NCBI GenBank assembly: GCA_003543115.1
Contig: DPJH01000036.1
Location: 9,182-73,181 of the forward strand
DNA from: Candidatus Moraniibacteriota bacterium
GTDB lineage: Bacteria; Patescibacteriota; Minisyncoccia; Moranbacterales; UBA2206
DNA length: 64,000 nucleotides
Direction: 5' to 3'
Shown here in pieces: positions 22,106-37,003 of this stretch; positions within the stretch are counted from its first letter, which is position 1, and every line of letters starts with the position of its first letter. Below the pieces are notes generated by a model. That model was not told the DNA's origin, ran no database searches, and saw nothing but the letters and a program-made list of their open reading frames with translations. Made by a program: the position numbers and the translations under genes.

Positions 22106-23185
22106 TTATTTAGCCAAACATTGTTTTTGGTAGTTTTGAACTTTCTGGACATAGTCCCGGGTTTCTTTATATCCTTGCTTGTTGGGGTTGTTTTTATGGA
22201 CACCTTCTCCTTCCACGCTTCCGTCAGCAAAATAAGGGCATTGCCACGCCGGCATGCTTTCAGGATATCCTGCTCGCCCCTTGCAGGCTTGAGATTCGGC
22301 AAACGGGCCAAGTTTTCCTTCACCAGCCTTTGCTCCTCCTCCGCCATTATAGGATGCGATTAAATCGTCATTTCCTGTATAATAACTGCCTCCATCCGGG
22401 AAAGTTACTTTTTCTGTGCCAGGAGTTGTTTGTTTGCTGGTTGGGAATTTTGTATATGAATTAAGCTGGGATTGGTTTGATTTGAGAAGCTCAGCGGCCT
22501 TTTTGATGCTTTTTTCCGGATCGCTTAACTCCGATGCGCTCATACCGGCGGTATCAGGCTTGATTTGCATGAGTCCATAAGCTCCTTTATTGCTGCCTCC
22601 TACATTAGAATTGCATCCGCTTTCCTGCATGGCAATTCCCTTAAGAAGGCATTGGGTTTCTTTATCCGGAGCAGCTGAATTAAATTGTGAATCATATTTA
22701 TCGCATGCTGGAGAAAGAGATCCTAGTTTGACAGGAGTGCCGGTTGTCGGAGGGGTCTCACCAGGCTTAGTTGGTGTTGTTGGTGCTCCTCCTCCCGTTG
22801 CCGCTCCTCCGCCCTTGGTTCCGCAAATGCCATTTATTTGGGTGAGATCCGGATTGATTTCATACAGAATGAGATAGGAAAAAAAAGCGAGCAACAATCC
22901 TACGATAGCATCAAAAATCACTCCTTTGGCTTTTCCCATGCTGGCATTGTTTCCGGCTGACATGATATACATATAGCCTCCGATTATGATCATAAACATA
23001 GCGCAAATACCGATCACCCAAATCCCGAATTTGTAAACAGCAGAAATATAGTTGCAAAAATTTCCATCAGTCGTAACTCCCGGAATTTTTTCCATGGGAG
23101 TATAATCAAAAGAAGCTAAAACATCCAAAGCAGGCATTGCGATGAAGAGAAGAGCAAAAAAAGGAAGAAGAAATTTTTTAAGCAT
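22106..23185 (-). CDS. VirB1-like cell-wall hydrolase: VirB2/TrbC-like pilin-type membrane anchor fused to SLT lytic transglycosylase domain
   Basis: The N-terminal 130 aa comprise a signal peptide plus two hydrophobic helices separated by a short loop, which is TrbC/VirB2-like topology. A Gly/Pro/Thr linker follows. The C-terminus has the SLT motif AMQESGCNS...GAYGLMQI. Confidence 0.6.
   Translation of the reverse strand: MLKKFLLPFFALLFIAMPALDVLASFDYTPMEKIPGVTTDGNFCNYISAVYKFGIWVIGICAMFMIIIGGYMYIMSAGNNASMGKAKGVIFDAIVGLLLAFFSYLILYEINPDLTQINGICGTKGGGAATGGGAPTTPTKPGETPPTTGTPVKLGSLSPACDKYDSQFNSAAPDKETQCLLKGIAMQESGCNSNVGGSNKGAYGLMQIKPDTAGMSASELSDPEKSIKKAAELLKSNQSQLNSYTKFPTSKQTTPGTEKVTFPDGGSYYTGNDDLIASYNGGGGAKAGEGKLGPFAESQACKGRAGYPESMPAWQCPYFADGSVEGEGVHKNNPNKQGYKETRDYVQKVQNYQKQCLAK
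22789..23185. repeat. direct repeat copy A (~400 bp, 100% identical to 23933-24330)
   Basis: Direct comparison of the two stretches, covering the 5' ends of the two tandem paralogs, showed no mismatch. Confidence 0.85.
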
Positions 23186-23214: not shown

Positions 23215-24330
23215 TTATTTACAATTATAACATACATCCCAATGATTACCTTCTCTTGCATAAGTGTTTCCAGACGGATCTTTATATAAAGTTGCGCCAT
23301 CGCTACGTGTGCCAGTTTTTTTATAGTTTGTCTGGATATAGTTATTGACTACCGGAGTATCATCGATATCAATTTTATATCCATTCGCATGCGAATAATT
23401 TCCACTTGCGTGTGGGCTGCTTTCTGCTCCTCCGGTAATGACAATTGGTGCGCCAACTTCTTTTTGGAAAGCAATGATGCTGTTAATTGAAGTATCTTTG
23501 AGTCCGCTTATTTTAGTTGCGCCAGGACTTGATTCCCATACGCTGATTTGCCCGTTACTTCTATTTGTTAAATCAGTTCTTGAAGTTGTTTCCGAGGCTG
23601 GGGAGCTTTCAGGACAGGGCTCATTGGTTATAGGATTGCCCCCCTCACATCCATCGGGAGACCTAGAGGTTATGAGTCTTGAGTGTGTGGTGCTTCCGGG
23701 CGTGCACAATGTCCAGGGTGAATATTCAAATTCAGTGCAGGTGTTTCCATTATTGCAAGTCCTGCTGGTAGCTTCTGGTGCTTTGCCGGTGCACCCGATA
23801 GGCAGTCCGGTAGCGGTCCTTGTTTGAGTTTCACTGCCTGTACACTGATCCGGTTCCCAGGATGAATAAGTAAAAGCACTGCATTCCTTGCCTTCTCCAT
23901 AAGGCTTTTCTGTTTCAGTCTTTGTCGTCTCCTCTCCTCCCGTTGCCGCTCCTCCGCCCTTGGTTCCGCAAATGCCATTTATTTGGGTGAGATCCGGATT
24001 GATTTCATACAGAATGAGATAGGAAAAAAAAGCGAGCAACAATCCTACGATAGCATCAAAAATCACTCCTTTGGCTTTTCCCATGCTGGCATTGTTTCCG
24101 GCTGACATGATATACATATAGCCTCCGATTATGATCATAAACATAGCGCAAATACCGATCACCCAAATCCCGAATTTGTAAACAGCAGAAATATAGTTGC
24201 AAAAATTTCCATCAGTCGTAACTCCCGGAATTTTTTCCATGGGAGTATAATCAAAAGAAGCTAAAACATCCAAAGCAGGCATTGCGATGAAGAGAAGAGC
24301 AAAAAAAGGAAGAAGAAATTTTTTAAGCAT
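23215..24330 (-). CDS. paralog with identical pilin-like anchor fused to Cys-rich putative peptidoglycan peptidase (M15-like) domain
   Basis: The first roughly 131 codons are nucleotide-identical to 22106..23185. The C-terminal domain has SPHASGNYSHANGYKIDID and a late HWD, reminiscent of the Zn-peptidase M15 H-x-x-G-x-x-x-D / H arrangement; this is tentative. Confidence 0.45.
   Translation of the reverse strand: MLKKFLLPFFALLFIAMPALDVLASFDYTPMEKIPGVTTDGNFCNYISAVYKFGIWVIGICAMFMIIIGGYMYIMSAGNNASMGKAKGVIFDAIVGLLLAFFSYLILYEINPDLTQINGICGTKGGGAATGGEETTKTETEKPYGEGKECSAFTYSSWEPDQCTGSETQTRTATGLPIGCTGKAPEATSRTCNNGNTCTEFEYSPWTLCTPGSTTHSRLITSRSPDGCEGGNPITNEPCPESSPASETTSRTDLTNRSNGQISVWESSPGATKISGLKDTSINSIIAFQKEVGAPIVITGGAESSPHASGNYSHANGYKIDIDDTPVVNNYIQTNYKKTGTRSDGATLYKDPSGNTYAREGNHWDVCYNCK
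23933..24330. repeat. direct repeat copy B (~400 bp, 100% identical to 22789-23185)
   Basis: Same as copy A: the two stretches are identical by eye with no mismatch. Confidence 0.85.
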
Positions 24331-24338
24331 AAGTTTTT

Positions 24339-27167
24339 CTAATATTCTTTTCTTTCCGGAGAGATGCTGAGGATGAGGCTGCTTGAGAATATGATCAGAG
24401 CAAAGGTTACAATTATTTTAAAAAGGAAGCTTATATATCCAGGCAGGCCTGAGAAAAGGCTGGCTAAAATTTTATTTTCATCTTTTTTCTGATAAGTGAT
24501 TTTTTTCTCTCCATTTATATTATCCGATACTATTACTTTGATTGTTTTAACGATGTCATTTTCCGAAAGGTTTGATCTTGAGATGTTCCATTTGTCATAT
24601 AAGGCTTTTTTTGTGGCTTCGTCTTGTTTGTGCGAAGTGGTGCTAGTTATGGTATAGGAAGCTCCCAGTTGTTTGGTTACGGGAAGATTAAGCGTATTCC
24701 CTCCATCGCTTACGAACGCTTCAATGCTGGAGTTGTTAGTATTTATTATTTCCTCTCCATCTACAGTCCAAGTGGTTGTTCCAAGAGAAGCGGTATTGTT
24801 AGGCGCTTGTAATTTTACCGTAGAGCCTGCTACTGCTTGAAAGAAATCTTTGCTGTAATCATCCCATTGAAGACCTTTGTCCTTATCCACAAATTGTCCC
24901 ATAAGAACAGGCGAAAGATTATTGGGATCGGTAGATTTTATATTGGCAGTTGGCTCGGAGATTGAAAAAGAACGGGTAAGGGTGATTTTTTCGGCAGAAT
25001 CCTTGCCGGCAATATCTAATTTGAGCACATAAGCTTTTCCTATTTCCTCGGTAATAGGAAAATAAATAAGATTATTGTCAGAATTTTCAGGAGAGAGCCT
25101 TTCTCCGTCCAGTGTCCAAGAAAAATTAAATTTGGAAGGATTATATTGTTCAGTTGGAATTCTGGCGGAAATAATTTCATCCGGAGTAACGGGGCATATG
25201 AATTTTTCTGACTCAGCGGTGCATCTTTCTTTTTCTTCATGGGTTAATTTTCCGGTAGCGGCATCAGCCTTAGCGGAATGGACCTTAATTTCTCCTTTGG
25301 AATTTTGAACGGTTATGATCGTAGTTTCTAATCCTTCCTTGGTAACATCAGTTGAAGAATTTTCTTTGGTTTTCAGCGTGGCTCTGACATAAAAAGCACT
25401 GGCATTTTCTGAAATTCCTTTAGCGGCCAAAACCTCTTTCTTAATGGAATCCAGGGGAATGTTCAGTTCTCTCAGTCCGATTCCTTCGAGAGGAAAATTT
25501 CCTCCCAGATCGGTCTGGGTCAAAGAGCGCCAATTGGAAGAATCGGGAGATTCAGCGATAGCCAACTCCCATTTATAATAGGTAAAGCCGCTATCTTCAT
25601 TGTTGGTGGTGTTAGATCGAATGGCAACAGTATCTGAATTTGCTCCTCCGGTGGACGAATCATATTGGGGTTTTGAATTGCTGACAGACAGGTTGTTGTT
25701 TATTTTTTTATAATCCCTTCCAGCGGTTGGTTCAACAAAAGCATCGTCAAGAGATTCATTGATAGATTCTATGGTTGGTTTTTCCGGTTCCTCCTCCCCT
25801 TCTTCCAATTTAGTTTCTGAAGTTTTGCATTCTTGTCCTTCTTCGCCATTATCATCAAAATTAACGCAGACCTCGCAACCTTCGGGATAACTTTTGTCTA
25901 TAAGAATGACTAGATTGGAAGATTCTTCAGCTTTCCATTTGAAAGCAGGGTTGGACTCTTCATATTTTCCAGGTATTCCGGGATTAGCAAATGCTTTGGT
26001 GGTGTTTTCCGAAGAACAGGATATTTGAACGTTGCAATCTCCATCTTTTCCTCCGCAATACGCATCACCTTTTTTATTAAAATGGAAATACCAGTCTCCA
26101 TTTTCTTTTCCATTTCCCATGGTTTTTATAATATCCGGGTTGTTGGAAATAGCCCACATAGTCTTGAAGGAAGAGTCTTTGGTTGAGGTCGAGCCGGTGG
26201 AAATTCCTTCCACTGCCACTCCTATTTTGTCGCCGGGAGAATAGATCCATTTGAATTCCATTTTTCCAAGGCCGGCTACGCTGGCTTCATCCATCACTCC
26301 GCTGCTGGAAGTATCATTGGAATTGGGATCGGTTCTCCAAAAAGATTCTTCTTTGGCTCCGAAATGTCCATCGCCCACTTTCTCATCTTTGAGTCCCGGA
26401 AAAGAGCTGACATCGGGAAAAAGATGTTCACAGCTTTCCATTTCAATGTCCTCTCCCGTCTCTACGTTACGGGCAAAACAATAACTGTTTTTTCCTACCT
26501 GGTCATCTCCTCCGAAAACAGCCAAATATTCGTCGGAATCGTTATTGTTGCCAGATTCACCTTCATATTGATTGGGCAAGGAACAGTGATCAGGCGGATA
26601 TTCGCTTGTACAGTTCGGATCATCTTTGCCAAGAATTTTTTGCCATTCAAAATTCCCCGAAGCGATGATTCGCATAGCTTCAATTTTATAGTCTTCTATA
26701 TCCGTTTCCCCGTCTTTGTTATAATCGCATGATCCGGGCTCTTCTTCGCAACGAGCTCGTTTTAGGAACCATGTAAAATACATATCATTGGGCTTGTTGC
26801 GAAAAAGGGACGTTTCAGCTATAGCGGTCAATTCTTTTCCGGGAATCGGATTGGTCGGAACGAATTGTACATTTACTTGCGGAGCATCTGTTTTGTAACT
26901 CATGTAATTTACTTGGGAAGTCGCCTTTAGAAGCTCTTCTTTTTCCATGCCGAAATCTTCCAAAATCTGAGTGATAATTTTTTTAACACCTGGATCAGCT
27001 TTGATCAATCCGGCAGAGGAAAAAATTCCCGCTTGTCCAAAAATAGAACTGAGAACGTCTCCTTCGGAAGTGTCTGAAGAATCAGCTTTGGATATAAAAG
27101 GAATATTAAGGCCGAGAATTAACGACAAAATCAAGATAAAACAGGATGTCTTTTGAAAAAAATGCAT
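24339..27167 (-). CDS. large (942 aa) Cys-rich secreted/surface protein with C-terminal TM anchor
   Basis: Has an N-terminal signal peptide (MHFFQKTSCFILILSLILGLNIPFISKA), many Cys, Asp/Glu/Asn/Ser-rich stretches, and a C-terminal hydrophobic anchor (IIVTFALIIFSSSLILSI). It is embedded in the T4SS-like operon. Confidence 0.5.
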   Translation of the reverse strand: MHFFQKTSCFILILSLILGLNIPFISKADSSDTSEGDVLSSIFGQAGIFSSAGLIKADPGVKKIITQILEDFGMEKEELLKATSQVNYMSYKTDAPQVNVQFVPTNPIPGKELTAIAETSLFRNKPNDMYFTWFLKRARCEEEPGSCDYNKDGETDIEDYKIEAMRIIASGNFEWQKILGKDDPNCTSEYPPDHCSLPNQYEGESGNNNDSDEYLAVFGGDDQVGKNSYCFARNVETGEDIEMESCEHLFPDVSSFPGLKDEKVGDGHFGAKEESFWRTDPNSNDTSSSGVMDEASVAGLGKMEFKWIYSPGDKIGVAVEGISTGSTSTKDSSFKTMWAISNNPDIIKTMGNGKENGDWYFHFNKKGDAYCGGKDGDCNVQISCSSENTTKAFANPGIPGKYEESNPAFKWKAEESSNLVILIDKSYPEGCEVCVNFDDNGEEGQECKTSETKLEEGEEEPEKPTIESINESLDDAFVEPTAGRDYKKINNNLSVSNSKPQYDSSTGGANSDTVAIRSNTTNNEDSGFTYYKWELAIAESPDSSNWRSLTQTDLGGNFPLEGIGLRELNIPLDSIKKEVLAAKGISENASAFYVRATLKTKENSSTDVTKEGLETTIITVQNSKGEIKVHSAKADAATGKLTHEEKERCTAESEKFICPVTPDEIISARIPTEQYNPSKFNFSWTLDGERLSPENSDNNLIYFPITEEIGKAYVLKLDIAGKDSAEKITLTRSFSISEPTANIKSTDPNNLSPVLMGQFVDKDKGLQWDDYSKDFFQAVAGSTVKLQAPNNTASLGTTTWTVDGEEIINTNNSSIEAFVSDGGNTLNLPVTKQLGASYTITSTTSHKQDEATKKALYDKWNISRSNLSENDIVKTIKVIVSDNINGEKKITYQKKDENKILASLFSGLPGYISFLFKIIVTFALIIFSSSLILSISPERKEY

Positions 27168-27183
27168 AAAATTTAAAAAATAA

Positions 27184-27843
27184 TTACCTTACTAATTCTA
27201 TAATATAAAGGTCTAAAAACAAAATAAAAACAATCCCGGAAAAACAGGAGAAAAGAAACGAACGGCTGTAATAGGAGGCTATTCCTCCGGTTAGGGAAAA
27301 AATAATAAGAGGCGTATATTGCCAGGTCAGTTTTTCGATGAAAAATAGAAAAGAGATGAAGAGAATAAATTGGAAAAAGGGAGCCCAAAAGCCAAATTTT
27401 TTTTCTAAGGTTGTTTGCAAGAAACCGTGAAAAAAAAAGCTTAGAACAAACAAAATAATTCCGATAACGATCAATTCATAAAAAACAAATGCCCAAAAGT
27501 GATTAATGATAAAAATCGGCACTACATATTTTTCTTCTAAATTAAAAAAATAAAAAAGAATAACAGCAATAAAAAAAGAAAACAAGAGCATCAGAGAGGC
27601 CCCAAAAATACCTTTTTTTCTTTCAGAAAAATTTAATCCAAAATCACATAGGTTTTTTTGCAGCACTAGTTTGATAAATAAAGCTGGAAGAAGGACCAGG
27701 AAAAAAGCGATGCGAGAGATGAGTTGCAAGGCGCCCTTAGCAGGAAATGAGATTGCCAAAAATAGGCACGCAAAAGCCACTAGGAAGGTGATTATTTCCC
27801 TTTTCCAATTATGGAGAAAATTAAATATTTTTTGCATATCCAT
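27184..27843 (-). CDS. polytopic membrane protein (possible CPBP/Abi-like)
   Basis: It has about 6 TM helices and lies within the T4SS-like operon. Confidence 0.35.
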   Translation of the reverse strand: MDMQKIFNFLHNWKREIITFLVAFACLFLAISFPAKGALQLISRIAFFLVLLPALFIKLVLQKNLCDFGLNFSERKKGIFGASLMLLFSFFIAVILFYFFNLEEKYVVPIFIINHFWAFVFYELIVIGIILFVLSFFFHGFLQTTLEKKFGFWAPFFQFILFISFLFFIEKLTWQYTPLIIFSLTGGIASYYSRSFLFSCFSGIVFILFLDLYIIELVR

Positions 27844-27871
27844 ACTAAATTTTTTTAGAATTTTTCTGCAG

Positions 27872-28363
27872 CTATTTTTTATTTCCTTGCTCGGCTTTTT
27901 TTCTTTCAGCGAGAGTCATTACGAATGCAACGACAACTAAAACAGTTTCCAGGGGAAGCATTCCTACAGCGGGAATCATTTCGGTAATCGCCGTGCCGAT
28001 CAAAAGAAGGGTTCTTTTGATAATGCTGCGGGCCATTTTTACTTTTCCGGTAGAGCCGGTGATAACCATAATCAGGAAGATGAAAACCGAGATAAAAAAA
28101 GTAAAGATAATGGTTAGAATTTCTCCAATTCCAAAAACGGCGATAAGGACGGTATTGATAATATCCAGCAGATCTTTAAGCATGGCTAGGATAAGCGCAA
28201 TGCCAAACAGCCAATCAATAAAAGGATCGATATATGCGAAAAGCGAAACTGATTTAATGGCAGCGGACGCCCTTTTTCCCCCTTTACTGATAGAATCCTT
28301 AAAAGATCTTTTTTGAACCAGCCTAAGGTTAGAAGCGTAGCTTGAATAAGTTTCTCCTGGCAT
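27872..28363 (-). CDS. small membrane protein of T4SS-like operon
   Basis: Three to four hydrophobic helices sit immediately downstream of the VirB4 ATPase gene. Confidence 0.35.
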   Translation of the reverse strand: MPGETYSSYASNLRLVQKRSFKDSISKGGKRASAAIKSVSLFAYIDPFIDWLFGIALILAMLKDLLDIINTVLIAVFGIGEILTIIFTFFISVFIFLIMVITGSTGKVKMARSIIKRTLLLIGTAITEMIPAVGMLPLETVLVVVAFVMTLAERKKAEQGNKK

Positions 28364-28386
28364 ACTGATTATATGTTAATCATTTT

Positions 28387-30213
28387 TTATTCTCCTTCAT
28401 TATCAAAATCCTTCTTGGCTTGCTCAATTTCAAGCATTTGAGCCGGATCAGTTGTAATAACCTGATCTTCGCCATAAGAAGCTACGACTTTGATAGCTAC
28501 ATGTTTTGTTCCGGCAAAGAAAATTCCTTCACCCACATTGCTTTCAAGAAGAAGGAATTTCTCCTGATCGGTCAGATAAAATGTTTCCGATATGACATCA
28601 ATGGCTGCTGGAGATTGTTTGAGCAAGAGCTGGATAGATGAATTGGTAACGATCGGTTTTCCATAGCGGGAAGAAAGAAAATCATTCACGTCTTGAGTGA
28701 TGGTAGTGAGTCCAGTATAATATTTCCTGCATCTTTTTGCAATTCCAAAAAGGAAAGAAGCGGCATCATCATATTTCATCATTACCCAGGCTTCGTCTAC
28801 AAGAACAATTCTTTTTCGTACGTTGGCTCGCATTTCATTCCAGATGAAATGAAGCACGATATACATGGCGATAGGGCGCAATTCATCTTCCATATCACGA
28901 ATATTGAAAACCACTAATTTATTATCAGCAATAATATTGGTTGGATTGTTGAGAAATCCGGCAAAGATACCATCGGTATATTTTTCCAGCCGAATAGCTA
29001 AATCCTCTCCCCCATCCATGTTGCGCAAAACTTGGTAGAGATCGGTGATTGTCGGGTAAGCTTCTTTGGGAATGGAATTAAAAGGAGTTTGGGCATTAAT
29101 ATCCCGGATAGCATAGGTTTCATGGATGGCTCTGTCAAGAATAGAATCTTCTTCCGGCGTAATATTTCCCAGCATAAGATGAAGAAGGCCTAAAAGGTTG
29201 GCAATGTTGTTTCGCAAAATATCAGCCGGATCCTCGTCATCCGAAATTTTTGGCAAATCAAACGGATTGAGGTGATTGTGGGAATTAAGGGATATTTTCA
29301 GAAAAGACCCCTGGACGGTGTCGCAAAGATGCCTATATTCATTTTCTGGGTCAATAATAATAACATCCGTTCCAATCATCAAAGAGCGCAGAACTTCCAG
29401 TTTTATGGTATAGCTTTTTCCAGCTCCGGATTTGGCAAAAACCACCATATTGCCATTTTCCATTTTGAAGCGATCAAAAAGAATGAGACTGTTATTGTGC
29501 CTATTGATGCCATAAAGAATGCCCTCATCATTGGAAAGCGTGGAAGAGACAAAAGGAAAAGTGGTGGAGAGAGGAGCGGAATTCATGTTGGTGCCGATAT
29601 TAATTTCATCATTGGCAAGCGGTATGGTTGAATTGAATCCTTGCTCTGTTCGGAATATGGCAGGCTTGGTATAAACCAATTGTGCTTCCAGAATAGACTC
29701 GATGCTTCTGGCTGATTTTTCCAATTCTTCTTCACTTGCTCCGTAAACAGTTATATATAAGCCGAAACGAAAGAACTTTTCCGTTCCTTGTTGCAGCTTG
29801 TCTCTCAGTTCTTCAATGTCATTGATAGCGGTTTCCAGAGCTGGGTCGCGAATCATCCCACTTTCTTCTTCAATATGGATCTGAGATTGCACTTGTGTGG
29901 AGCTTCTGCGAAGATTTTTAAGGATATCATAAGTGTCGATGGGATGCACGAACATGGAAATATCCATAGGCATGTCTATGTTTATGATCGGAGAGAACCA
30001 GTTGCTGTGAAGATATCGAGGATAGGAAATTACGAAAATTGTTCGAGCAAAAGTCTCTCCCATGCGGATTGATTTGGGAGTTATTTTAATAGAAGCAGGC
30101 GCTATGATATCTTGCAGCTTGGCTATTCCTTCTTGATAATATTTTTCTGAAGCAAGGATCTCATCTCTTTCTTCAGGCTTCATGGCGCTTTTTTTATTAA
30201 AAAAATCGAACAT
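28387..30213 (-). CDS. VirB4/TrbE/CagE-family type IV secretion ATPase, ATPase portion
   Basis: Walker A is VVFAKSGAGKSYTIK and Walker B-like is RKRIVLVDEAW. At 608 aa it lacks the usual roughly 200-aa N-domain, which is encoded by the upstream ORF. Confidence 0.75.
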   Translation of the reverse strand: MFDFFNKKSAMKPEERDEILASEKYYQEGIAKLQDIIAPASIKITPKSIRMGETFARTIFVISYPRYLHSNWFSPIINIDMPMDISMFVHPIDTYDILKNLRRSSTQVQSQIHIEEESGMIRDPALETAINDIEELRDKLQQGTEKFFRFGLYITVYGASEEELEKSARSIESILEAQLVYTKPAIFRTEQGFNSTIPLANDEINIGTNMNSAPLSTTFPFVSSTLSNDEGILYGINRHNNSLILFDRFKMENGNMVVFAKSGAGKSYTIKLEVLRSLMIGTDVIIIDPENEYRHLCDTVQGSFLKISLNSHNHLNPFDLPKISDDEDPADILRNNIANLLGLLHLMLGNITPEEDSILDRAIHETYAIRDINAQTPFNSIPKEAYPTITDLYQVLRNMDGGEDLAIRLEKYTDGIFAGFLNNPTNIIADNKLVVFNIRDMEDELRPIAMYIVLHFIWNEMRANVRKRIVLVDEAWVMMKYDDAASFLFGIAKRCRKYYTGLTTITQDVNDFLSSRYGKPIVTNSSIQLLLKQSPAAIDVISETFYLTDQEKFLLLESNVGEGIFFAGTKHVAIKVVASYGEDQVITTDPAQMLEIEQAKKDFDNEGE

Positions 30214-30239
30214 AAGGTATGAATTTTATAATTTTTTAA

Positions 30240-30926
30240 TTATTGTATTTCCAGATTATTTACATCCCCGATTTCTGGATTGGTAAATAAGTTAGGGTTA
30301 TAGGAATTATATAGCAGCTCAACTATTTCTTGTGTTTTGAGCGGAGTGAGGCGGAGTCCGATGCCGGAAAGAGACGCGGTGATATGATCCAGTCTTTGGA
30401 AAAGCTGATTTTTATATGTTTCAAAATGCTCTCTTTTTGCCTGGATACTTTTTCGGGGATTAAAATGGTCCATCATATTGCCTAAAAAACCCTTACCCTC
30501 ATTTTCTACCGGGGAAAACGGAACAACAATGTAGAAATTCTTATCCATAATATTGGAAACAGAAACTAATTGCTGGATAAAATTTTGGTATTCCGAAATT
30601 TGAAATTTCAGAAGATCGTTTTTCTGTTGGCGTGATTTTTTCTCAATGAAATCAAGATAATCGGAAATATTGAGCTTTCTGGAGCTTATGACGATTTGAA
30701 CCGGAAAATCAAGGGAATTGAGAAAAGCTTGATATTGCATTATTATAGCATCTTGTTCCTCGGTTGATTTAAGATCAAAATTAATGGCAGAAACAGCCAT
30801 TATGGCTCTCATTGAGCCATTTTTTAGAATAATAACATCTTCTTTCACTTCAGCTACGTCTAAAAATATTTGGGTGGCTGAAGCGTTATTTTGGCCGGAT
30901 AGTTTGTTTGAATGTAAAATTTCCAT
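30240..30926 (-). CDS. VirB4 N-terminal domain encoded as separate ORF
   Basis: ILKNGSMRAIMAVSAINFDLKSTEEQDAIIMQYQAFLNSLDFPVQIVI matches the conserved start of Gram-positive-type VirB4 proteins (PINFxLKSxxEQ...Y..FLxSL.FP.Q). It lies 26 nt upstream of the ATPase ORF, in a different frame. Confidence 0.55.
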   Translation of the reverse strand: MEILHSNKLSGQNNASATQIFLDVAEVKEDVIILKNGSMRAIMAVSAINFDLKSTEEQDAIIMQYQAFLNSLDFPVQIVISSRKLNISDYLDFIEKKSRQQKNDLLKFQISEYQNFIQQLVSVSNIMDKNFYIVVPFSPVENEGKGFLGNMMDHFNPRKSIQAKREHFETYKNQLFQRLDHITASLSGIGLRLTPLKTQEIVELLYNSYNPNLFTNPEIGDVNNLEIQ

Positions 30927-31330
30927 TATTTTTTCTTTATTTCTAGCAATTGGGATACTTTTTTAATTTCTTCAAGGCTGATTTCTTTGTTAGTGTGAAC
31001 GGATGACTTTTCATTGATTATTTTTGTGTGTTTGAATAAGTTTTTGGTGTCTGGCATTCTTCTCCACATATATATTTTTGGCTTGGAGAAAAATATGAAT
31101 ATTGATCCTAGAGCGGATATAAGAGGTTGTCCATTGGGCCGATAGAAAGCCAGTCCTCCAAAAATAAAAGCTACAAAAAAAGTTGACACAACAAAGGCTG
31201 CCAAATCAAGAACGCTCCAAAGTAAAAGAAGACACACTCCTCCTGCTGCCAGCCATCCTAATTGTTTGGCGGTCAAAGGGCCGACGATCTTATCTTCGAT
31301 ATCAATAAATTGTGGGATGTTGAATATCAT
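30926..31330 (-). CDS. VirB3-like small membrane protein
   Basis: A 134-aa protein with two TM helices immediately upstream of VirB4, overlapping it by 1 nt. This is the typical VirB3/ConD-type position and topology. Confidence 0.4.
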   Translation of the reverse strand: MIFNIPQFIDIEDKIVGPLTAKQLGWLAAGGVCLLLLWSVLDLAAFVVSTFFVAFIFGGLAFYRPNGQPLISALGSIFIFFSKPKIYMWRRMPDTKNLFKHTKIINEKSSVHTNKEISLEEIKKVSQLLEIKKK

Positions 31331-31348
31331 GGAATTAATTTTTGAATT

Positions 31349-32635
31349 TTATATCTCTCTTAAGTTTACCACATTTTTTCCGCTTGGTCTTGGAGGTGCG
31401 GGCTTTTTTTCGAGAACGACAGTGTTTGTTTTCGGTGTGGATGATTGGTAGGGCTTGACCGGCAAATTATCGGGTGATTGCGGAGTCGAAAAATATTTTT
31501 TTTGTTTCGCTATAGGATCCTTTTCATATTCATAAGGAAGTTTTTGGGGAGAGGAAAAAGTCATTTTGTTAGTTTGCAGTTCGCTTGCCTGCTCGCCTTG
31601 CTCTCGACTCGTCGAAGCGGGCCGGCGAGGCGGGTAGTTCGTAGTTTGTGGCGAGTTGTTGTCTGTGTATGGTTGGCCGTGGTCATTTTTCTTGTTAGCT
31701 TCAATTGGTCGTGACGTAGATGATTCTGTTTCAGCGATAGATGTTGCCGGTGCAGTTTGAATTTTGGGCTTCAATGTTTCTGGAACGTTTCTGCCTGCTG
31801 CGGGAGAGGTGAAAGGCGGAAAAACTATTTGTCTGGTTGTTTTGTTGATGGAAATGGGAGTTTCATCGTTGAATGATTTTAGGATATATGTCAGTTTTTG
31901 TCTGTCGGAAGAACTCATTTTCTTGGTGTTTTCACTATGAAATAGATAGTTTCCGATTTCAATGGCGCTATGTTTTTCATATCCGAAATATGAAGTGTAG
32001 TCAGCTAGCCAGTTTGCAAGCGATGGACGCACCGATTCCGGAAAGCTGAGAATCTTGATGCGTTGCGAGGTGATGATCTGTTCTCCGATGTCCGGAATCT
32101 CTTTGAGTGCCTGAAAAATAGGCATTTTCATCAGTGAGGGCGCGTTTTGTTCTTGTGATCCGACAGAATTTTTGGAGAGTGGTTCCTGCAAGGACAGTTC
32201 GCGTGCCTTAGAAAGAATTCTAGATGAAATATCTTGCGCAATTTGATTGCAGGCCGCTGAATCTATGCCAAGATTTTTTTCTAACAGGCCATTGATATCT
32301 TCCCATTCTTTAGTTCGGCACAATTGCCATACGATGTGGGGCAGCGCATCTCTTTGTTTTTGGGATAGATTGAATTTTTTAGCCAAATCATCATAGAAAA
32401 GGGCATGCTCAAAAGAAAGCAGAAAAAAAATCAAATTACTGTCCATTCCAGAGAGGGTGTTGGGAAAAATTTGCGCATTGGCGTTTTGTTTCTTCCATTT
32501 TTCCAGTAATTCTTTTTTTGTTTCGGCTATTTCTTCGGCTATTTTTTGTTTTTCCAGTTCTAAATCATAGCCTTGGTATGAAGGATTGCTTTGATTGAAC
32601 CTATTGTAATCAGTCTTATTTTGATATGTTGGCAT
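31349..32635 (-). CDS. hypothetical soluble protein with Pro/Ser/Thr-rich C-terminal tail
   Basis: No TM helix. The C-terminal third is low complexity (PQTTNYPPRRPASTSREQGEQ...) and is encoded by a locally GC-rich stretch at 31560-31700. Confidence 0.4.
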   Translation of the reverse strand: MPTYQNKTDYNRFNQSNPSYQGYDLELEKQKIAEEIAETKKELLEKWKKQNANAQIFPNTLSGMDSNLIFFLLSFEHALFYDDLAKKFNLSQKQRDALPHIVWQLCRTKEWEDINGLLEKNLGIDSAACNQIAQDISSRILSKARELSLQEPLSKNSVGSQEQNAPSLMKMPIFQALKEIPDIGEQIITSQRIKILSFPESVRPSLANWLADYTSYFGYEKHSAIEIGNYLFHSENTKKMSSSDRQKLTYILKSFNDETPISINKTTRQIVFPPFTSPAAGRNVPETLKPKIQTAPATSIAETESSTSRPIEANKKNDHGQPYTDNNSPQTTNYPPRRPASTSREQGEQASELQTNKMTFSSPQKLPYEYEKDPIAKQKKYFSTPQSPDNLPVKPYQSSTPKTNTVVLEKKPAPPRPSGKNVVNLREI

Positions 32636-32655
32636 TTTATATAATATTTTAAATT

Positions 32656-33054
32656 CTAAAATTGAAAAACTGCCTGATTGTCTTTGATATATTGAATAAT
32701 CATATTCAATCTTTGTTGATTTTTGGTTGCGTTTTCTCCTAAGTTTTTATCCATGGCTTCAGAAATTTCAAAAGCTTCTTTTGTGATATAATCTTTTCTG
32801 ATTGTTTCAAGAAGCTCTGTTTTGTAGTTTTCCGGAGCATTTTTGCCGATATATTCTATATTAGCTTCTGAAATGCCGGCTATTATGCTCGGATAGGAAA
32901 AGGAATATACGCTTGATAAGAGAAGCTCTTCCCCTTTGAGGGACAGTATGTGTTGGGCTAATGCAACTTTTTGTTGGATAGTGTCTTGCGGGAAGGCAAT
33001 GTGGGGTATCGCAAATTTATCTAAAATTTCTTCACTAATGATATCGCTAAACAT
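32656..33054 (-). CDS. small hypothetical cytoplasmic protein
   Basis: A 132-aa intact ORF within the operon. Confidence 0.35.
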   Translation of the reverse strand: MFSDIISEEILDKFAIPHIAFPQDTIQQKVALAQHILSLKGEELLLSSVYSFSYPSIIAGISEANIEYIGKNAPENYKTELLETIRKDYITKEAFEISEAMDKNLGENATKNQQRLNMIIQYIKDNQAVFQF

Positions 33055-33071
33055 GTTTTTAAGTAAAATAA

Positions 33072-34964
33072 TTAGGTCCAGAGAGCGTCAACCACTCCCC
33101 TGGCTTTTGCTGCGGCAGTATTAATTTCTGGCGTTGTCGGCTTATCGTTTGTTTCTGCAACTTTATGCGCTTGCTTGGCCTTATCATTAAGCACTTTCCA
33201 ATTGAGAGCGATTTGTTGCTTGATATAATTTTCTTTTTGTTCAGAATTTTTTCCTTGCATATTTGTAGCGTGCATTCTATTTCTTGGATCGAGAACCTCG
33301 CTTCTTACTTTCAATTCAAATTCATCCTTTTTGCTAGTATCAGTTTTAAGATGATGTAGCATGGATGCCACTTTAACAGCTTCTCCATATCGTTTAGACG
33401 GATCTTTGTGGTGTAAGTCAGCTTTTAATATCTGATGAACAAGACTGTCTTTTCCAATCGCATCAATGTGATCATTTTCATCAGCTTTTTCCTTATATTT
33501 CTTTCTGAATTCTTCCACCCTCTTGTTTTTACTGGCATCTTTCCATCCTTTTTTGCCTCCAGTGACTCCTCCTGCAATTTGAGACTCTCGTTCTTCTTTG
33601 CCGCTCTTAAATAAGAATCTTGAATATTTATTATCCATTCCAAAAATTTTCCCGCTCTTTCTTGTGTTTTCCCATCCTTTCTTTATTCCACCTGGAATGC
33701 CAGTTGTGTTCCATGCGCCTTTTCCAAAGCTTTTCGCCATACCAATGCCTTTTCCGCGCACTTTTCCAAGAATTGATCCTGCTCCGTCAATTCCCTTCAC
33801 TGCCATGCCCATTCCTATCCAAAGTATAACAATAGGAGGAATAAATCTTGTCATACCTATAACAATATTGTTGGGCGCTGCTTCCATGCCTCCTATAAAC
33901 CCAACATCATTAGTTACGGCTGCCAATGTATTCATTAATTGTGTTGATATATAAAGAACCAGAGCGATAATTGGTCCAGCCATGGCATATTTGAAAAGAT
34001 TGTTCCACCATTCTCCGCCCTTTCCAATAATAGATCCTGCAAACCCGATAGGAGAAAAAATTATTATAATTCCTAGGGCAATAGTTCGTATGAGCAGTAT
34101 GAAGGCGAGAGCTAAAATAGTAAGAGCCAAGACAAAAATAAATATAATAGAAGCAAGCATTTGAGGAATATTAGCTTTTTTGTCTGTTATGATAATTTGC
34201 AGGTTATCGAAGGCAGATATGCTTGTTATTATTTCTCCCCCAGATTTATTGCTACCCATTAAGTTGTCAAGCAGGGTATACATAAGGGAATTGCTAATAT
34301 CAATAATAAAACGAGTAATAGGAAAACTGAAGTTCACTAAAAGTGCCATAATAACCAACCAAAGCAGTATATTTTTATAGTTATATTTGCTATATTGAAA
34401 AACAGTGGAAAAAGCGGAAAAAAGAAGAACTAAAATAAAGCCTATATTGCAAAGATCTCTGACTTTGCTCCATATTTCATATATAGCTGGATCAGAAAGC
34501 ATAGCTGAGGCAGTGTTTGCATCAATTACTTTTGAAAATAACAAAACAGCTAGATTGAGTATCCATCCAGTAAAATAAAGGACGCCCTGAAGTAACCACA
34601 TAATGGCGCCTTCAGCTGCATCTCCAACAGCTCCTGTAAATTCCTTGTCATTCTTAACTTCTTGTATTAGTCCAGCTGATTTTGTGAAAAATGGATATCC
34701 CGATGTACCTTTTTTTATAAAATCTGTTCCATATTTATAACGTCCACCATTTGATCCGCATTTTTTTTCGCATGCCTCTTTTGTCGGAGCTGTTGTTGAA
34801 TCGCCTGTTGCATAGCTTACAATATCACCAATATTTGCCTGAAAACAAGTACATGTATTTGATGCGGCTAAAATAGGCGTTGTATCAAAAAACAAAAAAC
34901 CGGCAGATATGATAAATATCGCTAAGAGTGTTGTGAATATTTTTTCCCTTTTTTGGTCTTTCAA
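33072..34964 (-). CDS. VirB6/TrbL-like polytopic membrane protein
   Basis: A signal peptide and Cys-rich extracellular N-domain are followed by about 6 TM helices and a Lys-rich cytoplasmic tail. Size and position are typical of VirB6 in Gram-positive/CPR T4SS loci. Confidence 0.5.
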   Translation of the reverse strand: MKDQKREKIFTTLLAIFIISAGFLFFDTTPILAASNTCTCFQANIGDIVSYATGDSTTAPTKEACEKKCGSNGGRYKYGTDFIKKGTSGYPFFTKSAGLIQEVKNDKEFTGAVGDAAEGAIMWLLQGVLYFTGWILNLAVLLFSKVIDANTASAMLSDPAIYEIWSKVRDLCNIGFILVLLFSAFSTVFQYSKYNYKNILLWLVIMALLVNFSFPITRFIIDISNSLMYTLLDNLMGSNKSGGEIITSISAFDNLQIIITDKKANIPQMLASIIFIFVLALTILALAFILLIRTIALGIIIIFSPIGFAGSIIGKGGEWWNNLFKYAMAGPIIALVLYISTQLMNTLAAVTNDVGFIGGMEAAPNNIVIGMTRFIPPIVILWIGMGMAVKGIDGAGSILGKVRGKGIGMAKSFGKGAWNTTGIPGGIKKGWENTRKSGKIFGMDNKYSRFLFKSGKEERESQIAGGVTGGKKGWKDASKNKRVEEFRKKYKEKADENDHIDAIGKDSLVHQILKADLHHKDPSKRYGEAVKVASMLHHLKTDTSKKDEFELKVRSEVLDPRNRMHATNMQGKNSEQKENYIKQQIALNWKVLNDKAKQAHKVAETNDKPTTPEINTAAAKARGVVDALWT

Positions 34965-35011
34965 CTTTTTCGTATATGAAATGATTTCTATTATTTTATC
35001 CAGTCAATTTC

Positions 35012-35965
35012 CTATGTCGGATTGTCCGGATTGACCCATGGTTTGGCCTCTCCTTCCGGTGCTTCATTTTCTTCGCTATTTTGAGCGTCTTGGTCTTCTT
35101 CTCCCGTGTTTTCCTGAGATTTTCCGATTCCGTCTTGAATGGTTTGGGATACGAATTGGGTGACCATTCCGGCTATCACATCTTGCATGCTGGTGGCGCT
35201 GGAAATGGAATCAAAGCTCATGGCATTGGCATTGCTTAACTGGGAAGCGATATAGGCTCCGGGAGTGACAACCTTTCCATTTTTTTCGGTCCCCTTATAT
35301 CCCATGCCGGCGATAGCTTTGACCTCGGCGATTTGTCTTGTTTCTTCCAGTTTCTTTTGATACATGCTCTGGACATATAGTTGGTAGGACCAGGGATTGT
35401 TGATTCCGGAAAGATAGGAATTAAAATTGTTGAGATTCCCATCGCTAAAGAGATTTTCACTTGGATTGCCCACATAAGTCGTTTTCAATTTCTTGGTTTC
35501 TGATTGAATCATTGATTTAGCCATACTGGAGAGTTGTTTTTTGAAGTCAGCTCCTCCGCTGCCTTGAGGAAAATAATCGCCAATGCCTTCAGCTGAAACA
35601 TAGCTGCTCAGATCTTGTCCGCCAACACTTTCACTTATATAGTCATTTATATAGACTTGGGCGCTTTTTTCCGATTGGGTGAAAAGATAGTCCTTATAAT
35701 TGCTGATTATTTTGCTGTCTTTCGAGCTGCTTCCCCCGACAACATTGCTTACTTGTTCGCTGATCATCTTGATTGCCATCTGTTTCATGGCGCCGGTAAG
35801 AATATTTTTGACCATGTCTTGCACATAAGCCATGATTCTGTTTACCAAAGTAGCCGGTATGGCCATCCAGGCATCGGCTTTTTGGGCTTGGACAGGAGCA
35901 AAAGCCAAGCCGATAGAAAAAATAAAAACAAAAATAATTTTACGAAAATTTGATTTAGACTTCAT
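35012..35965 (-). CDS. secreted protein (signal peptide), possible VirB5/pilus-associated component
   Basis: Begins MKSKSNFRKIIFVFIFSIGLAFAPVQAQKADA. The mature protein is predicted helical and ends in an acidic tail. Confidence 0.35.
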   Translation of the reverse strand: MKSKSNFRKIIFVFIFSIGLAFAPVQAQKADAWMAIPATLVNRIMAYVQDMVKNILTGAMKQMAIKMISEQVSNVVGGSSSKDSKIISNYKDYLFTQSEKSAQVYINDYISESVGGQDLSSYVSAEGIGDYFPQGSGGADFKKQLSSMAKSMIQSETKKLKTTYVGNPSENLFSDGNLNNFNSYLSGINNPWSYQLYVQSMYQKKLEETRQIAEVKAIAGMGYKGTEKNGKVVTPGAYIASQLSNANAMSFDSISSATSMQDVIAGMVTQFVSQTIQDGIGKSQENTGEEDQDAQNSEENEAPEGEAKPWVNPDNPT

Positions 35966-35971
35966 ATTGGT

Positions 35972-37003
35972 TTATTTTATTTCCTCGAGAAAATTATCAG
36001 AAACGGAAACCCCATAATCGTTCAGTTGCTTTTGCATATTGGAATCAAGTTTCAAGTCATACTGCTCTATCTTTTTTGTAATAGAGTCGGAAAAATCAGA
36101 AACAAGCATGGTGGCGCTTTGGATGTTTGAATAATTCACTAGATTGGTCAGAGGATCATCTTGGACCGAATTCACCGAGTTTTTGAGCTGATCGACATAA
36201 CTGATCAGCTGGAGTCCCTTGATGTGGTCCTCAGTCATTTCTTCAGGCACTTCTATATCTTTTATTTGAGAGGATATTTTCTTTAGGGACAAGTCCAGAT
36301 CTTCGATGGAGCTGGAGTTTTGAGAGCTAAGAGCGCTTCCTATTTTCTCCATAACAGAAGAGTTGAGCTTATTGATGTCATCGTTTGAGTTGATCGGTTC
36401 CGGGGAATTGGAAAGTAAGACATAGGAAATTCCGGTGATATAGTCGCTCATATCCTGCTTTTTCTTTTCCAGCTGTTTTTCTTTGGATAATCCATCATAA
36501 TCCTGCTTTTTTATTTTTATTTGCTTGGGGTCTGCAGGAGGCGGGAGTTCTCGGGCGGATTTTTCCTGTTCTATGGATTCATTGACAATAGTTTTTATCT
36601 GTTCGATGGTTTCCTGCTGATTTTCGGAATCTGCATTTTTCAAAGTGGTGGAAATTTTTTTAGAAACCTCTTTGGTGAGATTTCTTTTGTCGGAGTCGTT
36701 ATTTTTTTTATCAGAAAAAGTGTTTGCATCCGGAATCAGCTTGTCTCCGGGCGATGGTTTTTTGGGATCATAGCCGCTTTTTACTTCTGCTCCGTCAGAA
36801 TATCCATCTCCGTCAGTATCCGTTTTGTTGGGATTGGTGCCATAAGTTTTTTCTTCATCATCCGAAAGGCCGTCTTGATCGCTATCAAGGAAGATGTTTT
36901 TAGTGGTGATTGATTTTTCTTCAGCATAAGCATAGAAAGAAAAACTGCTGACGATAAGTATCAATAAAACAGCTAAGGATATTTGAAAGTTTTTTATTTT
37001 CAT
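35972..37003 (-). CDS. secreted protein with thrombospondin type-3-like Ca-binding repeats
   Basis: A signal peptide is followed by DSDQDGLSDDEE...TDTDGDGYSDGAEVKSGYDP (DxDxDG motifs). Confidence 0.5.
   Translation of the reverse strand: MKIKNFQISLAVLLILIVSSFSFYAYAEEKSITTKNIFLDSDQDGLSDDEEKTYGTNPNKTDTDGDGYSDGAEVKSGYDPKKPSPGDKLIPDANTFSDKKNNDSDKRNLTKEVSKKISTTLKNADSENQQETIEQIKTIVNESIEQEKSARELPPPADPKQIKIKKQDYDGLSKEKQLEKKKQDMSDYITGISYVLLSNSPEPINSNDDINKLNSSVMEKIGSALSSQNSSSIEDLDLSLKKISSQIKDIEVPEEMTEDHIKGLQLISYVDQLKNSVNSVQDDPLTNLVNYSNIQSATMLVSDFSDSITKKIEQYDLKLDSNMQKQLNDYGVSVSDNFLEEIK

What the first reader, a model, noticed from the sequence alone, without database searches (positions are those of the whole stretch)
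28387..30926. VirB4 ATPase encoded as two ORFs (N-domain 228 aa + ATPase 608 aa) separated by 26 nt and a frame change
The 228-aa ORF carries the conserved Gram-positive-type VirB4 N-terminal signature (AINFDLKSTEEQ...YQAFLNSLDFPVQIVI). The downstream 608-aa ORF carries the Walker A/B ATPase core but lacks an N-domain. Together they total about 836 aa, the normal VirB4 size. The two are in different frames, and one stop (TAA at 30240-30242) lies between them. This is either a genuine split VirB4, which is rare, a frameshift pseudogene/sequencing error, or programmed frameshifting.
Basis: partly seen in the sequence, partly recalled or inferred. Interest (0 to 1): 0.6.

Follow-up and report, generated by a model that had tools for sequence, protein, structure and literature searches.

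The report
Two-gene VirB4: TrsD-like piece plus ATPase
The VirB4 motor of this ultra-small bacterium's type IV secretion system really is encoded as two adjacent genes, but this is the normal, conserved and already published arrangement (TrsD plus VirB4) in its phylum, not a sequencing error or a recoding event.

Summary
On the minus strand, a 228-aa ORF (30926-30240) and a 608-aa ORF (30213-28387) are separated by 26 nt and lie in different frames. It is not an error, a pseudogene or a frameshift site. No single indel or shift can join the frames. The 228-aa protein has more than 1,600 stand-alone homologues of about 228 aa. In 78 of 78 species-level genomes carrying both genes, the two are separate ORFs, with variable spacers and all three frame offsets.

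The small protein matches positions about 16-180 of full-length VirB4 profiles. The large one starts where the small one ends, and it still carries about 220 aa of the N-terminal domain. So the break lies inside the N-terminal domain, not between that domain and the ATPase domain.

The same VirB3/PrgI, small protein, short VirB4 trio, broken at the same point, occurs on Firmicutes plasmids. In pSK41 the small protein is TrsD/TraD and the short VirB4 is TraE. A 2025 paper already reports TrsD as the most abundant type IV secretion component in Patescibacteria.

One side finding: a patescibacterial lineage, with members named Ca. Colwellbacteria, has re-fused the two genes. Novelty: already known. 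Interest: low.

The parts
30926..31330 (-). PrgI family (VirB3-like) small membrane protein gene, 134 aa. Its stop overlaps the start of the next gene by 1 nt.
   Evidence: Pfam PF12666 PrgI, E 4.1e-09, 37.3 bits against a cutoff of 27. TAATG overlap. A homologue lies upstream of the TrsD-like gene in 72 of the 80 related loci.
30240..30926 (-). TrsD-like protein, 228 aa: the free-standing first part (about 200 aa) of the VirB4 N-terminal domain.
   Evidence: NCBIfam hits to the N-terminal positions of full-length VirB4 models and to the TrsD/TraD family. 1,622 homologues, the best 120 of them 224-236 aa. 149 of the 150 best cluster representatives are shorter than 450 aa and so not fused to an ATPase domain. 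The only meaningful fold hits are R388 TrwK/VirB4 chains.
30214..30239 (-). 26-nt intergenic spacer (TTAAAAAATTATAAAATTCATACCTT). It contains a TAA in the downstream frame.
   Evidence: No promoter-like or terminator-like site in the spacer. In 78 orthologous loci the spacer ranges from -101 to +245 nt, median 9.
28387..30213 (-). VirB4 ATPase body, 608 aa: the second half of the N-terminal domain (residues 1 to about 223) plus the P-loop C-terminal domain (about 224-587; Walker A 260-267, Walker B 469-474).
   Evidence: NF045971 (VirB4-like, CD1110 family) 372 bits against a cutoff of 325, covering profile positions 180-734 of 752. PF19044, 100.8 bits. PDB 4AG5, E 2.8e-50. A homologue lies directly downstream of the TrsD-like gene in 78 of 78 loci.

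Best explanation
This is a genuine, ancient and conserved two-gene form of the type IV secretion ATPase VirB4, in a Candidatus Moranbacteria (Patescibacteria) chromosome. The 228-aa gene is a TrsD/TraD-like protein that carries the first 200 or so residues of the VirB4 N-terminal domain. The 608-aa gene carries the rest of that domain plus the ATPase domain.

The two genes sit in a tightly packed, same-strand gene row with the VirB3/PrgI gene just upstream. Co-transcription is inferred from that layout.

The proposed mechanism is inferred, not shown. The TrsD-like polypeptide would bind non-covalently to the N-terminal part of the 608-aa protein and rebuild a complete VirB4 N-terminal domain. 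In the R388 structure, that domain is the part VirB3 wraps around and the part that mediates VirB4-VirB4 dimer contacts. The C-terminal domain would then form the hexameric motor that powers assembly and transport by the patescibacterial type IV secretion system.
For: Sequence logic:
- In the downstream frame a TAA lies 5 codons before the ATG, after the upstream ORF's own TAA. No single indel or ribosomal shift can fuse the two ORFs.

Conservation of the split:
- The small protein has 1,622 homologues. The best 120 are 224-236 aa at 62-100% identity.
- In a library of 1.84 billion representatives there are 2,317 hits, and 149 of the best 150 are shorter than 450 aa, too short to carry the ATPase part.
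- In 80 species-representative genomes, 78 of 78 with both genes keep them as separate ORFs. Frame offsets are 24/24/30, and spacers range from -101 to +245 nt.

Complementarity of the two proteins:
- ORF228 residues 27-185 match TIGR00929 positions 18-176, and ORF608 residues 52-556 match positions 238-725.
- ORF228 residues 32-135 match the CD1110 model at 16-119, and ORF608 residues 26-574 match it at 180-734.
- ORF228 residues 7-135 match the VirB4_plasma model at 92-233, and ORF608 residues 21-584 match it at 283-891.
- A natural fused relative, P0231 (797 aa), aligns over residues 3-209 to ORF228 and over 203-796 to ORF608.
- The AlphaFold2 model of P0231 superposes end to end on R388 TrwK/VirB4: 810 columns, TM 0.61, E 8e-28.
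- Pfam TraC_F_IV spans P0231 residues 169-394, so it crosses the junction.

Precedent with the same break point:
- pSK41 has TrsD (227 aa) plus TraE (672 aa). Similar pairs occur on Leuconostoc, Pontibacillus and C. botulinum plasmids, where NCBI annotation or my alignments identify a PrgI or small conjugal-transfer gene just upstream.
- The N-termini of the short VirB4 proteins and the C-termini of the TrsD-like proteins coincide with those in the window.

Literature:
- TrsD is reported as homologous to the VirB4 N-terminus and as the most abundant type IV secretion component in Patescibacteria: 2,272 homologues, 1,664 of them next to virB4. It is essential in Ca. Southlakia epibionticum (PMC12102498; PMC10633639).
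- The roles of the VirB4 N-terminal domain in R388 come from PMC9259494.
Against: - Physical association of the two polypeptides is inferred only.
- The AlphaFold2 model of ORF228 alone is of moderate confidence (pLDDT 68.6), and its Foldseek E-values against VirB4 are weak (6.8e-3).
- The match to the curated TrsD/TraD model is far below its cutoff (32.7 against 200 bits). The relation to staphylococcal TrsD is therefore distant, and a shared origin of the break point, as opposed to convergence at a permissive site, is not proven.
- PMC12102498 reports that in Gracilibacteria TrsD is usually not adjacent to virB4. Adjacency is therefore not universal.
Confidence: 0.88

Rival explanations
1. 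Frameshift pseudogene or sequencing/assembly error that broke a single VirB4 gene.
For: The two ORFs are collinear with a full-length VirB4, and their lengths add up to a normal VirB4 size. Real disrupted cases do exist elsewhere: in L084 a fused-type gene has lost codons 90-192 and changed frame.
Against: No single indel can restore one frame. The identical architecture and the length of about 228 aa hold in more than 1,600 homologues and in 78 of 78 species-level genomes at 40-81% identity. Both parts are under evident purifying selection.
Confidence: 0.01
2. Programmed ribosomal frameshifting or stop-codon readthrough produces a single fused VirB4 from the two ORFs.
For: The frames differ, and an A-rich run (TTAAAAAAT) lies in the spacer.
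Against: The A-run lies after the upstream stop codon. Readthrough in frame 0 ends at a TGA 22 codons later. The downstream frame is closed by a TAA inside the spacer, so the two frames share no open overlap. Among orthologues all three frame relations are equally common (24/24/30) and the spacer length varies widely, so no recoding signal is conserved.
Confidence: 0.01
3. The TrsD-like protein is an independent accessory or regulatory paralogue of the VirB4 N-terminus (for example an assembly chaperone or a competitor for VirB3), not a structural piece that completes the short VirB4.
For: [quoted passage not shown] TrsD is not adjacent to virB4 in Gracilibacteria. Many homologues carry long disordered C-terminal tails, being 300-443 aa long.
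Against: The short VirB4 lacks exactly the segment that TrsD supplies: the profile coordinates are complementary and do not overlap. A monophyletic lineage has joined the two into one polypeptide whose model matches full-length VirB4 end to end. A Pfam domain of the N-terminal region spans the junction.
Confidence: 0.1

Closest known systems
TrsD/TraD plus TrsE/TraE of staphylococcal conjugative plasmids pGO1/pSK41 (MPF_FATA class; NCBIfam NF041427 for TrsD)
   Same: Same gene order: small membrane protein, then a protein of about 227 aa, then a short VirB4 (672 aa in pSK41). Same break point: ORF608 residue 11 aligns to TraE residue 6, and the TrsD-like profile positions 13-213 align to TrsD residues 27-217. 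The NF041427 hit has E 6.3e-08.
   Different: Very distant in sequence: 21-24% identity, and 32.7 bits against a family cutoff of 200. The locus here is chromosomal in a patescibacterium. PMC12102498 reports that most such clusters have no relaxase, whereas pSK41 is a conjugative plasmid.
Patescibacterial type IV secretion system (Quinonero-Coronel et al. 2025, PMC12102498; Wang et al. 2023, PMC10633639)
   Same: Same phylum and the same components (PrgI/VirB3, TrsD, VirB4). The VirB4 clusters with patescibacterial homologues. The paper reports TrsD next to virB4 in 1,664 cases.
   Different: Nothing material. The paper describes TrsD as a component with remote homology to the VirB4 N-terminus and no assigned function. 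In the text I searched, it does not say that the patescibacterial VirB4 lacks that segment, and it does not mention fused forms.
Full-length VirB4 (R388 TrwK, 823 aa; PDB 7O41/8RTD)
   Same: The two ORFs together cover the whole fold. The fused relative's model superposes on TrwK over 810 columns with TM 0.61. The C-terminal domain is also homologous to 4AG5.
   Different: One polypeptide in R388, two here. The break falls at roughly TrwK residue 175-190, inside the N-terminal domain (residues 15-400 according to PMC9259494). This estimate comes from offsets.
VirB3-VirB4 fusion proteins of some Gram-negative systems
   Same: Another example of the VirB3/VirB4 N-terminal module being repartitioned among polypeptides. 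I know of these fusions only from PMC12102498.
   Different: The event is the opposite one, a fusion rather than a fission, and it occurs at a different boundary. No VirB3-VirB4 fusion is present here.

Membership tests
VirB4/TrbE/CagE type IV secretion ATPase | P-loop C-terminal domain homologous to the VirB4 C-terminal domain, with Walker A and B motifs | tested here: met
   4AG5, E 2.8e-50, over residues 224-587. PF19044, 100.8 bits against a cutoff of 25.8. NF045971, 372 bits against a cutoff of 325. AKSGAGKS at 260-267 and IVLVDE at 469-474.
VirB4/TrbE/CagE type IV secretion ATPase | Complete N-terminal domain of about 400 aa present | tested here: met
   Present, but divided. ORF228 covers TIGR00929 positions 18-176 and ORF608 covers 238-725. 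The fused relative's model matches TrwK end to end.
VirB4/TrbE/CagE type IV secretion ATPase | [quoted passage not shown] | tested here: not met
   Two ORFs, with stops in both frames between them. The split is conserved in 78 of 78 loci.
VirB4/TrbE/CagE type IV secretion ATPase | Encoded next to a VirB3-like small membrane protein gene | tested here: met
   PrgI (PF12666) gene at 31330-30926, directly upstream.
VirB4/TrbE/CagE type IV secretion ATPase | ATP hydrolysis and hexamer formation | not testable with these tools
   Needs biochemistry.
TrsD/TraD family (NCBIfam NF041427) | Stand-alone protein of about 200-230 aa, homologous to the VirB4 N-terminus | tested here: met
   228 aa. Hits to the N-terminal positions of four full-length VirB4 models. 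The top 14 fold hits are TrwK/VirB4 chains.
TrsD/TraD family (NCBIfam NF041427) | Score above the curated family cutoff (200 bits) | tested here: not met
   32.7 bits, E 6.3e-08. hhalign to pSK41 TrsD gives probability 63.7% and E 6.7e-05. It is a distant homologue, not a member of the curated subfamily. The precomputed Pfam assignment is PF26593, a model absent from the local Pfam copy.
TrsD/TraD family (NCBIfam NF041427) | Gene lies between a VirB3-like gene and a short VirB4 that lacks the corresponding segment | tested here: met
   Window. The same layout is seen in pSK41, Leuconostoc, Pontibacillus and C. botulinum plasmids.
Programmed ribosomal frameshift / recoding site | Overlap of the two open frames with a slippery site upstream of the 0-frame stop | tested here: not met
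   The 0-frame TAA precedes the last stop of the downstream frame, so there is no overlap.
Programmed ribosomal frameshift / recoding site | Frame relation and spacing conserved among orthologues | tested here: not met
   Frame offsets 24/24/30; spacer from -101 to +245 nt.
Patescibacterial MPF_FATA-derived type IV secretion locus (PMC12102498) | VirB4 belongs to the patescibacterial clade, with TrsD and PrgI adjacent | tested here: met
   In the neighbour-joining tree the window's VirB4 sits among patescibacterial sequences, apart from the Firmicutes outgroups. Adjacency.
Patescibacterial MPF_FATA-derived type IV secretion locus (PMC12102498) | VirB2-like pilins, VirB6 and VirB1 nearby; no relaxase or coupling protein in the cluster | tested here: inconclusive
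   Only a weak T4SS_pilin hit (E 0.052) for the 163-aa ORF and an SLT domain in ORF 22106-23185. No profile hit for a VirB6 candidate. Absence of a relaxase or coupling protein was not searched systematically.

The most novel reading that the evidence does not exclude
The break is a single ancient fission, shared by pGO1/pSK41-type Firmicutes systems and all Patescibacteria, that turned the first half of the VirB4 N-terminal domain into a detachable subunit. The separation would be functionally exploited, for example by letting TrsD occupancy differ between the 'central' and 'outside' VirB4 positions, or by acting as an assembly checkpoint with VirB3. The monophyletic re-fusion in one lineage (members named Ca. 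Colwellbacteria) would be a natural experiment showing that the covalent link is optional. The published text I searched states neither the complementarity (that the patescibacterial VirB4 lacks exactly what TrsD supplies) nor the existence of the re-fused clade.
Probability: 0.2. Interest if true: 0.4.

Novelty: already known. Interest (0 to 1): 0.15.

Why it matters
For genome annotation, the adjacent pair of a roughly 228-aa 'hypothetical protein' and a roughly 600-aa 'ATP-binding protein' in Patescibacteria should be read as one functional VirB4. It should not be flagged as a pseudogene.

For type IV secretion biology, the data give TrsD a concrete hypothesis to test. TrsD is listed in the literature as having no assigned function, yet it is essential in Ca. 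Southlakia epibionticum. The hypothesis is that it is the missing first half of the VirB4 N-terminal domain, the region that contacts VirB3 in the R388 structure.

This is an incremental clarification of a published system, not a discovery.

Tried and rejected
- The local Pfam scan found nothing for the 228-aa ORF, even at E up to 5. The precomputed family PF26593 is not in that copy, so I could not name it.
- A sequence search of the PDB with the 228-aa ORF gave only chance hits.
- The search for related loci with the broad 57-sequence alignment failed because it had no conserved stretch. A narrower 16-sequence alignment worked.
- hhalign of the fused-family profile against TrwK aligned only residues 320-744. 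The break point in TrwK numbering is therefore an extrapolation, not a direct alignment.
- Promoter and terminator scans were at chance level and uninformative.
- No Shine-Dalgarno-like motif appears upstream of any gene in the cluster, so its absence before ORF608 says nothing.
- The literature searches for 'TrsD' alone and for pIP501 TraD/TraE found nothing useful about the function of TrsD. The main text of Guglielmini 2014 does not mention TrsD by name.
- R388 under accession BR000038 was not in the collection; NC_028464 was.
- P0289, a 600-aa protein 88% identical to the fused P0231, looked like a recent fission. It proved to be a gene call from a disrupted fused gene.
Full report
**1. 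The observation**

On the minus strand there is a 228-aa ORF (30926-30240, ATG to TAA) and a 608-aa ORF (30213-28387). They are separated by 26 nt (TTAAAAAATTATAAAATTCATACCTT) and lie in different frames.
They are the most conserved columns of its family.
- The large ORF has Walker A (AKSGAGKS, 260-267) and Walker B (IVLVDE, 469-474).
- The window is AT-rich (35.8% GC).
- The small protein is 100% identical to a 'hypothetical protein' of a Candidatus Moranbacteria MAG.

**2. Not an error and not recoding**

Three-frame translation of the junction shows the following.
- After the TAA of the upstream ORF, frame 0 runs 22 more codons to a TGA.
- The frame of the downstream ORF is closed by a TAA inside the spacer, five codons before its ATG, and by several more stops further upstream.
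- The two open frames therefore never overlap. No single insertion, deletion or ribosomal slip can join them.

The comparative data are decisive.
- The small protein has 1,622 homologues at E<=1e-3. The best 120 are all 224-236 aa at 62-100% identity.
- An exhaustive HMMER search of 1.84 billion cluster representatives gave 2,317 hits. Of the best 150, 149 are shorter than 450 aa, too short to include an ATPase domain, and one (P0231, 797 aa) is fused.
- In 80 loci from species-representative genomes, with record names spanning Moraniibacteriota, Paceibacterota, Falkow-, Uhr-, Azam-, Buchananbacteria, Gracilibacteria and others, 78 carried both genes.
- In all 78 the genes are separate ORFs. 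The median lengths are 228 and 632 aa. Spacers run from -101 to +245 nt (median 9). Frame offsets are spread evenly (24/24/30).
- This is the signature of two independent, translationally close genes. It is not the signature of a recoding site or of a lesion.

**3. What the two proteins are**

The NCBIfam hits are collinear and complementary on three full-length VirB4 models.

| Model | ORF228 residues -> profile positions | ORF608 residues -> profile positions |
|---|---|---|
| TIGR00929 | 27-185 -> 18-176 | 52-556 -> 238-725 |
| CD1110 family (NF045971) | 32-135 -> 16-119 | 26-574 -> 180-734 (372 bits, above the 325-bit cutoff) |
| Mycoplasma-type VirB4 | 7-135 -> 92-233 | 21-584 -> 283-891 |

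- The crystallised VirB4 C-terminal domain (4AG5) aligns to ORF608 residues 224-587 (E 2.8e-50).
- ORF608 therefore keeps about 220 residues of the N-terminal domain. These give weak CagE_TrbE_VirB and TraC_F_IV Pfam hits at residues 53-198 and 124-178.
- By extrapolating alignment offsets, the break corresponds to about residue 175-190 of R388 TrwK. The N-terminal domain of TrwK is residues 15-400 (PMC9259494).

**4. Structural check**
- An AlphaFold2 model of ORF228 alone has moderate confidence (pLDDT 68.6). In the whole PDB its only meaningful fold matches, ranks 1-14, are TrwK/VirB4 chains of the R388 system (probability up to 1.00, best E 6.8e-3, 209 aligned columns).
- The natural fused relative P0231 aligns over residues 3-209 to ORF228 (42% identity) and over residues 203-796 to ORF608 (51% identity).
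- The model of P0231 (pLDDT 75.1) superposes end to end on TrwK (810 columns, TM 0.61/0.61, E 8e-28).
- In P0231 the Pfam TraC_F_IV domain spans residues 169-394, across the junction.
- Together these results show that ORF228 plus ORF608 equals one complete VirB4.

**5. Precedent**

The small protein also hits NCBIfam NF041427, the 'TrsD/TraD family conjugative transfer protein' (E 6.3e-08, far below the family cutoff).
- tblastn against plasmids found 118 Firmicutes records.
- In the three records I opened the layout is the same:
  - Pontibacillus: 274 aa followed by a 621-aa 'VirB4-like, CD1110 family' protein.
  - Leuconostoc: an annotated trsD of 217 aa followed by a 672-aa protein.
  - C. 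botulinum pCBH: prgI, then 257 aa, then 620 aa.
- pSK41 has TrsD (227 aa) directly upstream of the 672-aa VirB4 homologue TraE.
- The break point is the same. ORF608 residue 11 aligns to TraE residue 6, residue 29 to Pontibacillus residue 27, and residue 53 to C. botulinum residue 53. The C-terminal ends of the TrsD-like proteins also coincide.

**6. Literature**
- Quinonero-Coronel et al. 2025 (PMC12102498) surveyed 3,035 patescibacterial genomes.
  - It was the most abundant type IV secretion component: 2,272 homologues in 2,221 assemblies, 1,664 of them next to virB4.
  - The TrsD homologue is essential in Ca. Southlakia epibionticum.
- Wang et al. 2023 (PMC10633639) showed that this type IV secretion cluster is essential for epibiotic growth.
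- So the arrangement in the window is the published norm for its phylum.
- What that paper does not say, in the text I searched, is that the patescibacterial VirB4 lacks exactly the segment TrsD supplies, or that fused forms exist.

**7. Mechanism**

Shown here:
- homology of both ORFs to VirB4;
- complementarity of the two pieces;
- a conserved break point;
- conserved synteny with PrgI/VirB3;
- a 1-nt stop/start overlap of PrgI with ORF228 (TAATG) and a 26-nt gap to ORF608 with no terminator-like site.

Inferred:
- The three genes are co-expressed.
- The TrsD-like polypeptide binds the N-terminal part of the short VirB4 to rebuild the N-terminal domain. In R388, VirB3 wraps around that domain, and it forms the VirB4 dimer interface (PMC9259494).
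- The C-terminal domain forms the ATPase ring that drives the system.

The main live alternative is that TrsD is an independent accessory paralogue. The complementarity and the natural fusion disfavour it, but only a complex structure or a binding experiment can exclude it.

**8. Side finding**

Searching with P0231 returned more than 115 clusters of 775-807-aa proteins at 59-100% identity. All carry both the TrsD-type domain (PF26593) and the ATPase domains. Those that have names are called Ca. Colwellbacteria, Parcubacteria or Patescibacteria.
- I built a neighbour-joining tree of the ATPase part from 70 split patescibacterial sequences, 30 fused ones and 4 split Firmicutes outgroups.
- The fused forms are monophyletic (100 of 100 bootstraps) and nested inside the split forms (100 of 100).
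- This points to a secondary re-fusion of an ancestrally split gene.
- Caveats: the method is neighbour-joining only, the sampling is biased towards relatives of the window, and the root is fixed by split outgroups.

**9. Verdict**

Novelty: already known. Interest: low.

Noticed in passing
P0231 and P0271-P0389; no counterpart in the window: One patescibacterial lineage (named members: Ca. Colwellbacteria, Parcubacteria) encodes TrsD and VirB4 as a single protein of 775-807 aa. In a neighbour-joining tree these fused forms are monophyletic and nested within split forms (100 of 100 bootstraps), which suggests a secondary re-fusion. I did not find this mentioned in the 2025 survey paper.
   Followed up: partly
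L084:1282-3458: A close relative of the fused gene (88% identity) is disrupted. Residues 1-89 and 193-796 lie in different frames and codons 90-192 are missing. This is a true pseudogene or a misassembly, and it was called as a 600-aa protein (P0289). It is a useful contrast to the intact split in the window.
   Followed up: yes
window 27872-28363 (-): The 163-aa hydrophobic ORF directly downstream of VirB4 has a weak Pfam T4SS_pilin hit (PF18895, E 0.052, residues 67-117). It is possibly one of the VirB2-like pilins reported for patescibacterial type IV secretion systems.
   Followed up: no
window 22106-23185 (-) and 23215-24330 (-): These adjacent ORFs of 359 and 371 aa give the same weak N-terminal profile match (residues 57-120), so they are probably paralogues. 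The 359-aa one carries an SLT lytic transglycosylase domain (E 2.1e-12) and is a candidate VirB1-like cell-wall hydrolase for the secretion system.
   Followed up: no
L016, L017, L021, L022, L023, L029, L031, L033: In these Moraniibacteriota-type loci the region homologous to ORF608 starts about 360-1,000 nt after the end of the TrsD-like gene, and the VirB4 ORF is 716-900 aa. The short VirB4 therefore seems to carry an extra N-terminal extension or insertion of unknown nature.
   Followed up: no
P0129, P0148 and other hits of 300-443 aa: Many TrsD-like proteins carry long, low-complexity C-terminal tails rich in Pro, Ala, Gln and Thr after the conserved core of about 215 aa. The function of these tails is unknown. 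The tails are absent from the window's protein.
   Followed up: no
window 24339-37003 (-): None of the 11 consecutive minus-strand genes has a recognisable Shine-Dalgarno motif in the 25 nt upstream of its start. The upstream regions are simply A/T-rich.
   Followed up: no
L006, L007, L009, L038, L040, L043 and others: Many 'binchicken' MAG records titled 'uncultured Bdellovibrionales', 'Gammaproteobacteria' or 'Micavibrio' carry this patescibacterial TrsD-VirB4 locus at 42-64% identity. The record titles are probably taxonomic mislabels.
   Followed up: no
window 24339-27167 (-), 35972-37003 (-), 33072-34964 (-): The cluster also encodes a 942-aa protein with a hydrophobic N-terminal segment suggestive of a signal peptide and no family hit, a 343-aa protein with bacterial TSP3 repeats (E 4.8e-15), and a 630-aa ORF with long hydrophobic stretches, suggestive of a multi-pass membrane protein, and no family hit. 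The last is a possible VirB6 analogue.
   Followed up: no
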